Source of the DNA: the human T2T-CHM13v2.0 reference genome, Homo sapiens
Length of the DNA: 64,000 nucleotides
Direction: 5' to 3'
Assembly: GCA_009914755.4 (NCBI GenBank)
Contig: CP086569.2
Location: forward strand, 1,600,001-1,664,000
Position 1 is the first letter of the stretch; every line of letters begins with the position of its first letter. Under the pieces are notes generated by a model. The model did no database searches and was not told the DNA's origin. It worked only from the letters and a program-made list of their open reading frames with translations. This document shows positions 33,995 to 35,045 of the stretch, piece after piece. The translations under genes and the position numbers were made by a program.

Positions 33995-35045
33995 TGCTTT
34001 ATGCAATCACCTTTTTTTTTTTTTTTTTTTTGAGACGGAGTCTCGCTCTGTCCCCTAGGCTGGAGTGCAGTGGAGCGATCTCGGCTCACTGCAAACTCCA
34101 CCTCCCGGGTTCGCGCCATTCTCCTGCCTCAGCCTCCCAAGTCGCTGGCACTACGGGCACACACCACAACACCTGGCTAAGTTTTTTTGTTGTTGTTTTT
34201 GTTGTATTTTTAGTAGAGATGGATTTCAACATGTTAGCCAGGATAGTCTCGATCTCCTGACCTCATGATCTGCCCGCCTCGGCCTCCCAAAATGCTGGGA
34301 TTACAGGCATGAGCCACCATGCCAGGCTGCAATCACCTTTTAAATAATCTATCAGTATCCAGATACTGCTTTTCTTTTCTCTTTTTTTTTTTTTGAGATG
34401 GAGTTTTGCTCTTGTTGCCTAGGCTAGAGTGCGATGGCGTGATCTTGGCTCACTGCAACCTCCGCCTCCCGGGTTTAAGCGATTCTTCTGCCTCAACCTC
34501 CTGAGCAGCTGGGATTACAGGTGCCCGCCACCAGGCCCGCCTAATTTTTTTGTATTTTTAGTAGAGACTGGGTTTCACTGTGTTAGCCAGGATGGTCTTC
34601 ATCTCGTGACCTCGTGATCTGCCCACCTCGGCCTCTCAAAGTGCTGGGATTACAGGCATGAGCCATTGTGCCCTGCTGCAATCACGTTTTAAATAGTCTA
34701 TCAGTACCCAGATACTGCTTTTCTTTTCTTTTTCTTTTTTTTTTTTGAGATGATGGAGTTTCACTCTTGTTGCCCACGCTGGAGTGCAATGGTGTGATCT
34801 TGGCTCACTGCAACCTCTGCCTCACGGGTTTAAGCGCTTCTCCTGCCTCAACCTCCTGAGTAGCTGGGATTACAGGCGCCTGCCACCACTCCCGCCTAAT
34901 TTTTTTTTTTTTTTTTGTATTTTTAGTAGAGACGGGGTTTCACCATGTTGGCCCAGCTGGTCTCAAACTCATGACCTCAGGTGATCTGCCTGCCTTGGCC
35001 TCCCAAAGTGCTGGAATTACAGGTGTGAGCCACTGCACCCAGCCA
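33995..35045 (-). repeat. Three tandem units (~327-347 bp) of a 60-bp flank (tgcaatcac.ttttaaata.tctatcagta.ccagatactgcttttcttttc) plus Alu(-); Alus at 34012-34328, 34382-34673 and 34733-35045
   Basis: The flank motif recurs at ~34003, ~34330 and ~34677, each followed by a poly-T and the Alu antisense body. Confidence 0.85.

What the first reader, a model, noticed from the sequence alone, without database searches (positions are those of the whole stretch)
33995..35045. Third independent tandem array of Alu+flank units (~330-350-bp period)
A 60-bp non-Alu flank (tgcaatcac.ttttaaata.tctatcagta.ccagatactgcttttcttttc) recurs three times, each followed by poly-T and an antisense Alu. This is the same architecture as at 1-1214 and 21315-22248 but with unrelated flanks, so the events are independent. 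Three or more such arrays in 64 kb is unusual. It suggests this region is prone to Alu-mediated unequal exchange, or is itself part of a larger low-copy repeat.
Basis: seen in the sequence. Interest (0 to 1): 0.5.

Follow-up and report, generated by a model that had tools for sequence, protein, structure and literature searches.

The report
Old Alu–Alu crossover tandem duplication
Two neighbouring Alu repeats misaligned and recombined tens of millions of years ago, copying one 349-bp unit and leaving three Alus in a row with a hybrid in the middle; this is an ordinary and well-understood kind of primate genome scar.

Summary
The array at 34002-35045 is real (TRF: period 349, 2.8 copies). The non-Alu flank is 52 bp and occurs in full only twice (34328-34379 and 34677-34728, 3 mismatches). 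The supposed first copy at 34002 is only TGCAATCACC, the target-site duplication of the left Alu.

The anatomy fits an Alu/Alu-mediated tandem duplication. A Y-type Alu inserted about 50 bp upstream of an older S-type Alu in the same orientation. A later exchange between the two duplicated one unit.
- The middle Alu is a hybrid. Its tail-side two-thirds follows the downstream Alu, including three states found in 0-2 of 45 other Alus in the window.
- Its head end is Y-type like the upstream Alu, and it abuts the same junction.
- It lacks matching target-site duplications and carries one from each parent.

Non-CpG divergence of all duplicated parts is about 6%, so the event is old (roughly 17-51 Myr).

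The array at 21314-22252 shows the same hybrid signature. An Alu-masked self-comparison shows no larger low-copy repeat. The window is rich in Alus (24%) and tandem arrays (18%), so local proneness to small duplications is plausible but was not tested against a genome-wide base rate. The finding is ordinary and of low interest.

The parts
34002..34011 (.). Upstream copy of the target-site duplication (TSD) of Alu1: TGCAATCACC.
   Evidence: TGCAATCAC occurs only 4 times in 64 kb, three of them at these junctions.
34012..34327 (-). Alu1: full-length Y-type Alu, antisense. T20 tail at 34012-34031, expanded A-rich linker at about 34182-34207. It lacks the first base of the consensus.
   Evidence: Alignment to consensus. 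Two Metazoa_SRP sub-threshold hits on the minus strand. Y-type diagnostic states in both monomers.
34328..34379 (.). Flank copy a (52 bp unique spacer). Its first 14 nt, TGCAATCACCTTTT, are the downstream TSD of Alu1, followed by AAATA (a TTTT/AA L1-endonuclease-type site). Positions 34361-34374, AGATACTGCTTTTC, are the upstream TSD of the older Alu.
34380..34676 (-). Alu2: hybrid (chimeric) Alu at the duplication junction. The tail-side part (34380 to about 34540-34578) derives from the Alu3 lineage. The head-side part (34585-34676) is Y-type like Alu1.
   Evidence: Shared-derived sites run 6/7 with Alu1 then 15/16 with Alu3, Fisher p = 4.6e-4. Best of 46 Alus when each is used as a mock middle copy. 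Rare states shared with Alu3 are present in 0/45, 0/45 and 2/45 controls.
34540..34585 (.). Exchange interval inside Alu2 (end of the left monomer / A-rich linker in Alu coordinates). Using all informative sites it narrows to 34578-34585.
34677..34728 (.). Flank copy b: 49/52 identical to copy a. It starts at the same Alu-head|TGCAATCAC junction as copy a and carries AGATACTGCTTTTC at 34710-34723.
34729..35044 (-). Alu3: the older S-type Alu (with Sq-like 3' end states), antisense. T-rich tail at 34729-34745.
35045..35058 (.). Downstream TSD of the older Alu: AGATGTTGGTTTTC. It matches AGATACTGCTTTTC in both flank copies at 11/14 positions.
   Evidence: Only 86 of 5000 shuffles of the upstream flank give a match this good.

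Best explanation
This is a fixed, ancient Alu/Alu-mediated tandem duplication.

Step 1 (inferred from TSDs): an S-type Alu inserted antisense, giving the TSD AGAT..TTTTC.

Step 2 (shown by a clean TSD): a Y-type Alu inserted in the same orientation about 50 bp upstream at a TTTT/AA site, duplicating TGCAATCACCTTTT.

Step 3 (inferred from anatomy): the two Alus, 349 bp apart in register, misaligned between sister chromatids or homologues, or served as template-switch partners during replication repair. Exchange near the linker of the Alu produced Alu1 - flank - [tail part of Alu3 + head part of Alu1] - flank - Alu3.

The product has no evident function. It has since decayed neutrally (about 6% non-CpG divergence between copies, roughly 17-51 Myr).
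For: (1) A unique 52-bp spacer is duplicated in exact register with the Alu ends (49/52 identical; E = 8e-21).

(2) Both spacer copies begin at the identical junction, Alu head lacking its first base | TGCAATCAC. The same 10-mer sits directly upstream of Alu1's poly-T. The left edge of the duplicated spacer is therefore the TSD of Alu1, which the Alu-Alu model predicts by construction.

(3) Alu2 has no matching TSDs. On its left is the old Alu's TSD and on its right is Alu1's TSD. Alu1 has a perfect TSD, and the old Alu's TSD pair matches 11/14 (86/5000 shuffles).

(4) Alu2 is a hybrid in the predicted direction. Its head part carries the Y-type 2-bp deletion and three Y-type substitutions, whereas Alu3's head is S-type. 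Its tail part carries S-type states plus three rare non-CpG states shared only with Alu3. It gives the strongest breakpoint signal of 46 Alus tested as mock middle copies (7.6e-4 against 4.5e-3 for the next).

(5) Non-CpG divergence is uniform across the three duplicated pieces (5/72, 3/52, 8/148), against 11-13% for the non-homologous comparisons. This points to one event of one age.

(6) The array at 21314-22252 shows the same polarity of hybrid structure (8/9 then 27/32, p = 1e-4).

(7) A chimeric Alu at the junction is the accepted hallmark of Alu/Alu-mediated rearrangement (PMC6071635). Alu-mediated duplications and multi-copy amplifications are documented in normal human genomes (PMC9675761).
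Against: - The head part of Alu2 resembles Alu1 only at subfamily level. The Y-type states occur in 9-16 of 45 other Alus, no rare variant is shared, and Alu2 ranks only 4th-5th of 46 in distance to Alu1's head.
- Natural S/Y-intermediate subfamilies have a similar mosaic, so the chimera test alone is suggestive (empirical 1/46) rather than decisive.
- Overall Alu identity between duplicates (about 85%) is lower than flank identity (94%). This is explained by CpG decay, but that explanation is not independently verified.
- No outgroup or alternative haplotype could be retrieved.
- Meiotic unequal crossover cannot be told apart from replicative template switching or single-strand annealing, because later mutation has erased the junction microhomology.
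Confidence: 0.85

Rival explanations
1. A non-homologous (microhomology or slippage) tandem duplication of exactly [flank + S-type Alu] came first. The Y-type Alu then inserted into the first flank copy, and gene conversion from it overwrote the head of the middle Alu.
For: It gives the same gross layout. A tandem duplication in which the Alu is only a passenger does exist in this window (50493-51752). The head-part similarity of Alu2 to Alu1 is only subfamily-level.
Against: It needs three events instead of one after the two insertions. It also needs the coincidence that the duplication boundary falls on the first base of the later Alu's TSD. Divergence of the Alu2 head from Alu1 (5/72) equals that of the flank and tail parts, so conversion would have to be as old as the duplication.
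Confidence: 0.07
2. The locus is one copy of a larger low-copy repeat or segmental duplication, and the array merely reflects that.
For: The window is very repeat-rich.
Against: The Alu-masked self-BLAST finds no long off-diagonal match involving 33-36 kb. The far matches are degenerate (TCTA)n blocks and a few 100-600 bp interspersed-repeat pairs elsewhere. Copies outside this 64 kb cannot be excluded.
Confidence: 0.04
3. Three independent Alu insertions, with the flank similarity arising by chance or from an underlying older repeat.
For: Alus often insert next to or into the tails of other Alus. Other close same-strand pairs exist in the window (16286/16604 and 47916/48244).
Against: A 52-bp unique sequence at 94% identity sits in identical register to both Alu ends and occurs nowhere else in the window. 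Rare variants are shared by Alu2 and Alu3. Alu2 lacks its own TSD.
Confidence: 0.01
4. An assembly artefact (spurious expansion of a single Alu+flank unit).
For: Tandem repeats are error-prone in assemblies.
Against: The copies differ by 6% in the flank and 14-25% in the Alus, and they belong to different subfamilies. Artefactual copies would be near-identical.
Confidence: 0.01

Closest known systems
Alu/Alu-mediated rearrangement (AAMR) / TE-mediated rearrangement by homologous repair, duplication class (PMC6071635; PMC9675761)
   Same: Directly oriented Alu pair as substrate. A full-length chimeric Alu at the junction. The intervening unique DNA is duplicated. An AluS-AluY pairing.
   Different: The unit here is only 349 bp (a 52-bp spacer), much shorter than the median 1,085 bp reported for TEMR duplications (PMC9675761). 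The event is ancient and presumably fixed, not a polymorphic or pathogenic CNV.
Alu recombination-mediated deletion (ARMD; PMC2041999 for chimpanzee, Sen et al. 2006 for human, the latter from my own knowledge)
   Same: Same substrate and same hallmark: a chimeric Alu flanked by non-matching TSDs, one from each parent.
   Different: ARMD is the reciprocal product (two Alus collapse into one and the spacer is lost). Here the gain product was retained (two Alus become three and the spacer is doubled).
Tandem or adjacent Alu insertions into A-tails of resident Alus (known phenomenon, from my own knowledge)
   Same: Head-to-tail Alus with very short spacers.
   Different: Independent insertions each carry their own TSD and do not duplicate a unique spacer. 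Here the spacer is duplicated and the middle Alu has no TSD of its own.
Composite-unit tandem arrays / VNTRs whose unit contains a transposable element (from my own knowledge)
   Same: The repeat unit is a TE plus unique sequence. Further unequal exchange can raise copy number, as in the array of at least 4 copies at 1-1215.
   Different: Only one duplication step happened here. There is no evidence of homogenisation or current copy-number variation.

Membership tests
Alu (dimeric 7SL-derived primate SINE) | Two 7SL-related monomers joined by an A-rich linker, about 280 bp plus an A-tail | tested here: met
   Each element gives two minus-strand Metazoa_SRP matches, below the gathering score as expected for Alu. 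Each aligns full-length to Alu consensus at 82-86%. Linker and T-tails are visible.
Alu (dimeric 7SL-derived primate SINE) | Flanking target-site duplications from L1-mediated insertion | tested here: met
   Alu1: TGCAATCACC(TTTT) on both sides at a TTTT/AA site. Old Alu: AGATACTGCTTTTC / AGATGTTGGTTTTC, 11/14, 86/5000 shuffles. Alu2 has none of its own, as expected for a recombinant.
Alu/Alu-mediated tandem duplication (AAMR / TEMR-HR) | Same-orientation Alus bound the duplicated segment | tested here: met
   All three Alus lie on the minus strand.
Alu/Alu-mediated tandem duplication (AAMR / TEMR-HR) | Chimeric Alu at the junction, colinear with consensus (exchange at homologous positions) | tested here: met
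   Sites run 6/7 then 15/16 (p = 4.6e-4). Rank 1 of 46 mock middle copies. The tail-part identity by descent is strong (rare shared states). The head-part evidence is subfamily-level only.
Alu/Alu-mediated tandem duplication (AAMR / TEMR-HR) | The intervening unique DNA is duplicated, and the junction Alu is flanked by one TSD from each parent | tested here: met
Alu/Alu-mediated tandem duplication (AAMR / TEMR-HR) | A pre-duplication allele (two Alus, one spacer) exists in an outgroup or another haplotype | not testable with these tools
   No primate genome collection is available. Exact-protein look-ups and DNA pattern scans returned nothing.
Segmental duplication / low-copy repeat (at least 1 kb, at least 90% identity) | A long, high-identity paralogous copy | tested here: not met
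   The unit is 349 bp at about 80-94% identity. There is no long off-diagonal match within the window after Alu masking. Copies outside the window were not testable.
Polymorphic VNTR / multi-copy CNV | Copy number varies among individuals | not testable with these tools
   No population data are available. The 6% divergence between copies argues against recent turnover.

The most novel reading that the evidence does not exclude
The window lies in a local hotspot for small tandem duplications. Closely spaced same-strand Alu pairs have been used repeatedly as exchange substrates (at least two, probably three arrays), alongside a passenger-Alu duplication and many VNTRs. Together these make up 18% of the sequence. 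Some of these arrays may still be copy-number polymorphic.
Probability: 0.25. Interest if true: 0.3.

Novelty: already known. Interest (0 to 1): 0.1.

Why it matters
It matters little beyond being a clean illustration. It shows the gain product of Alu-Alu exchange, which is reported far less often than the reciprocal deletion, with every expected mark still readable after tens of millions of years: parental TSDs, a hybrid Alu and a doubled spacer. In practice such arrays are scored by tandem-repeat finders as about 350-bp 'satellites' and can confuse read mapping and Alu subfamily calling. If the clustering in this window reflected a true local hotspot, it would be a modest example of how Alu density and tandem-repeat instability go together.

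Tried and rejected
- **Independent copies of the locus.** I tried exact-product look-ups of the two ORFs spanning the unique/Alu junctions, two metagenome pattern scans and one prokaryote-genome scan. All were empty, so no outgroup or haplotype test was possible.
- **Coding sequence to identify the locus.** ORFs of 130 aa or more are all repeat-derived. I ran no further search on them, because the unique flank downstream looks to me like an old interspersed repeat (not tested) and would return paralogues.
- **Overall-distance test for the hybrid Alu.** This was uninformative for the head part because all Alus sit close to consensus. I replaced it with shared-derived sites and a mock-middle-copy control.
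- **Sites first counted as private to Alu2 and Alu3.** Several are common among other Alus: alignment columns 262, 280, 283 and 291 occur in 8-13 of 45 controls. I therefore treated them as subfamily states, not identity by descent.
- **Literature search for a base rate of short Alu tandem arrays.** It found none.
- **Rejected explanations.** Chance, independent insertions, assembly artefact and a larger low-copy repeat within the window.

Full report
**What is in the sequence.** The window is primate DNA with a very high Alu content: about 55 Alu hits covering 24% of the 64 kb. At the finding, Tandem Repeats Finder reports one array at 34011-35033 with period 349, 2.8 copies and 80% matches. 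Reading the sequence and searching for the flank with mismatches gives this layout on the + strand:

| Coordinates | Feature |
|---|---|
| 34002-34011 | TGCAATCACC |
| 34012-34327 | Alu1, antisense, T20 tail first |
| 34328-34379 | 52-bp unique spacer, copy a |
| 34380-34676 | Alu2 |
| 34677-34728 | Spacer copy b, 49/52 identical to copy a |
| 34729-35044 | Alu3 |
| from 35045 | Unique DNA |

Each Alu gives two minus-strand matches to the metazoan SRP RNA model below its gathering score, which is what a dimeric 7SL-derived element should do.

The 'first copy' is a 10-mer that runs straight into the poly-T. After masking Alus, the only off-diagonal line at this place in a self-comparison is 34328-34394 against 34677-34743 (67 bp, 92.5%, E = 8e-21). 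The repeat is therefore real and far beyond chance, but it is a single duplication.

**Junctions.** The 10-mer upstream of Alu1's tail, TGCAATCACC followed by T's, is repeated immediately after Alu1's head as TGCAATCACCTTTT, followed by AAATA. This is a normal target-site duplication at a TTTT/AA site.
- Alu2's head is followed by the same junction: an Alu lacking its first consensus base, then TGCAATCACGTTTT AAATA.
- The older Alu has its own target-site duplication. AGATACTGCTTTTC lies in both spacer copies just before the T-rich tails, and AGATGTTGGTTTTC follows Alu3. These match at 11 of 14 positions, and only 86 of 5000 shuffles do as well.
- So Alu1 and the 'old Alu' each have a proper pair of duplications. 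Alu2 has none of its own. It carries the old Alu's on its tail side and Alu1's on its head side.

**The middle Alu is a hybrid.** Alu1 is Y-type in both monomers and Alu3 is S-type in both.
- Alu2 is Y-type at its head. It has the 2-bp deletion and three substitutions in the left monomer.
- Alu2 is S-type, with Alu3's particular variants, over the rest.
- Counting only subfamily-diagnostic or shared non-consensus sites, 6 of 7 sites in the head part go with Alu1 and 15 of 16 in the remainder go with Alu3 (Fisher p = 4.6e-4 at the best split).
- The switch lies between 34540 and 34585. Using all informative sites it lies between 34578 and 34585.

**Controls.** Natural Alu subfamilies intermediate between S and Y have a similar mosaic, so I used the other 45 full-length Alus of the window as controls.
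- *Tail part.* Alu2 is the closest of all Alus to Alu3. The two share three non-CpG states seen in 0/45, 0/45 and 2/45 controls. That is good evidence of identity by descent.
- *Head part.* The evidence is weaker. The Y-type states are present in 9-16 of 45 controls, no rare state is shared with Alu1, and Alu2 ranks only 4th-5th in distance.
- *Mock middle copies.* When each Alu is used as a mock middle copy, Alu2 gives the strongest breakpoint signal in the predicted direction (7.6e-4; the next is 4.5e-3). That is an empirical 1 in 46.
- *Sites reclassified.* Four sites I first took as private to Alu2 and Alu3 are common among controls and were downgraded to subfamily states.

The chimera test alone is therefore supportive rather than decisive. 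The weight of the argument lies in its combination with the duplicated spacer and the mixed target-site duplications.

**Mechanism.** The simplest history has three steps:
1. An S-type Alu inserts.
2. A Y-type Alu inserts about 50 bp upstream in the same orientation.
3. The two Alus pair out of register and exchange near the linker.

This gives Alu1 - spacer - (Alu3 tail part + Alu1 head part) - spacer - Alu3. One event explains four observations: the period (spacer plus one Alu), the fact that the duplicated spacer starts exactly at Alu1's target-site duplication, the hybrid Alu, and its lack of matching duplications.

Non-CpG divergence is the same in the three duplicated pieces: 5/72 for Alu1 against the Alu2 head, 3/52 for the spacer, and 8/148 for the Alu2 tail against Alu3. 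The non-homologous comparisons give 11-13%. Pooled, the divergence is 16/272 = 5.9% (95% interval 3.4-9.6%). At an assumed 1e-9 substitutions per site per year this is about 30 Myr, with a range of 17-51 Myr. This is a rough figure. The lower overall identity of the Alu parts (about 85%) is accounted for by CpG decay (8/20 and 9/34 CpG positions differ).

Whether the exchange was a meiotic unequal crossover or a replicative template switch or single-strand annealing between the Alus cannot be decided, because later mutations have erased the junction microhomology. The literature treats both under Alu/Alu-mediated rearrangement, with a chimeric Alu as the hallmark (PMC6071635). It also reports Alu-mediated duplications (33 of 493 TE-mediated events in three genomes) and multi-copy amplifications (PMC9675761).

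**Rivals.**
- *Non-homologous duplication of spacer + S-type Alu, followed by insertion of the Y-type Alu and gene conversion.* This would give the same picture. It needs more events, and it needs the duplication boundary to coincide with the first base of the later insertion's target-site duplication. I give it about 7%.
- *Independent insertions, chance, or an assembly artefact.* These are excluded by the in-register unique spacer, the shared rare variants and the divergence between copies.
- *A larger low-copy repeat.* This is not seen within the window, but copies elsewhere in the genome could not be checked.

The two other arrays are real.
- *Array 1-1215.* It has at least four copies of an Alu plus a TATTCTTTAAATTTT-(TG)n spacer, at 85-89% identity. 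It is cut off by the start of the window.
- *Array 21314-22252.* It has three Alus separated by AATTT(C/G)T plus T-rich tails. Its middle copy is again a hybrid with the same polarity: the first ~52 bp follow the downstream Alu at 8/9 sites, and the rest follow the upstream Alu at 27/32 sites (p = 1e-4).
- *Independence.* Spacers are unrelated, and between-array identity is 71-73%. The events are independent.
- *A fourth Alu-containing tandem duplication.* At 50493-51752 (period about 650, about 85% column identity), the Alu is internal. The junction shows a short GTTTATCTAT-like repeat, so the Alu there is a passenger.
- *Tandem content overall.* Summing the TRF intervals by hand, tandem arrays cover about 11.6 kb (18%) of the window.

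The region thus looks generally prone to small tandem duplications, and its high Alu density supplies many closely spaced same-strand pairs. Whether three or four arrays in 64 kb exceeds expectation could not be tested, because no genome-wide base rate was found.

**Verdict.** The interpretation of Alu-mediated unequal exchange is supported. The low-copy-repeat alternative is not. The structure is a textbook, ancient, presumably neutral Alu/Alu-mediated duplication: an already known kind and of low interest.

Noticed in passing
window 1-1215: Tandem array of at least 4 antisense Alu units (period about 319, 85-89% identity). Each unit is preceded by TATTCTTTA(A/C)ATTTT plus a (TG)n tract in place of a poly-T tail. 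The array is cut by the window start, so it may be longer. The last copy ends differently (..CCACCGCGCCGGTGTAGTT).
   Followed up: partly
window 21314-22252: Three antisense Alus separated by AATTT(C/G)T plus T-rich tails. The middle copy is a hybrid: its first ~52 bp follow the downstream, Y-like Alu and the rest follow the upstream, S-like Alu (p = 1e-4). This is the same exchange signature as the main finding. TRF did not list this array.
   Followed up: yes
window 50493-51752: Two-copy tandem duplication with a unit of about 600-650 bp (85% mean column identity in the MAFFT alignment, 81% in the BLAST alignment) in which a sense Alu is internal (a passenger). One copy has a ~44-bp indel. 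The junction shows a short GTTTATCTAT-like repeat, suggesting a microhomology-type rather than an Alu-mediated event.
   Followed up: partly
window 6282-6905, 12846-13272, 14039-14589, 23616-24368, 36638-37074, 46324-47074: Six minisatellite/VNTR-like arrays (periods 234, 61, 17, 30, 49 and 53 bp). The 30-bp array has 25 copies at 95% identity. Together with the other arrays, about 18% of the window is tandem repeat, which suggests a VNTR-rich (possibly subtelomeric-like) region.
   Followed up: no
window 52294-53276, 53937-54599, 59662-60851, 61630-62542: Four large degenerate (AGAT/TCTA)n-derived blocks of 0.5-1.1 kb. The first two lie in opposite orientation about 1 kb apart (52294-52957 against 54599-53938, 76% over 699 bp), forming a large imperfect inverted repeat.
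   Followed up: no
window 7806-8423 and 56261-56876: A 618-bp non-Alu direct repeat pair at 88.7% identity, 48 kb apart. Weaker relatives lie near 32030-32202 and 36243-36480. It is probably another interspersed repeat family but was not identified.
   Followed up: no
window 44565-44666: A perfect (100%) two-copy tandem duplication of a 51-bp unit. It looks like a very recent small duplication.
   Followed up: no
window 30021-30294 and 34012-34327: The Alu at 30021-30294 has a T33 run in its middle (30170-30202). It shares 5 rare non-consensus states with Alu1, the highest such count in the window, equalled only by one true duplicate pair. Both have expanded linkers, so this may be an alignment artefact of low-complexity sequence. 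It is unexplained.
   Followed up: no
window 34052-34179, 34492-34543, 34771-34898: Sub-threshold Rfam matches to mir-1268 (in all three Alus) and mir-3135 (in Alu1 and Alu3 only). The bit scores (32-43) are well below the gathering scores (80-83). I read them as Alu similarity, since these families are, to my knowledge, Alu-derived, and not as miRNA genes.
   Followed up: partly
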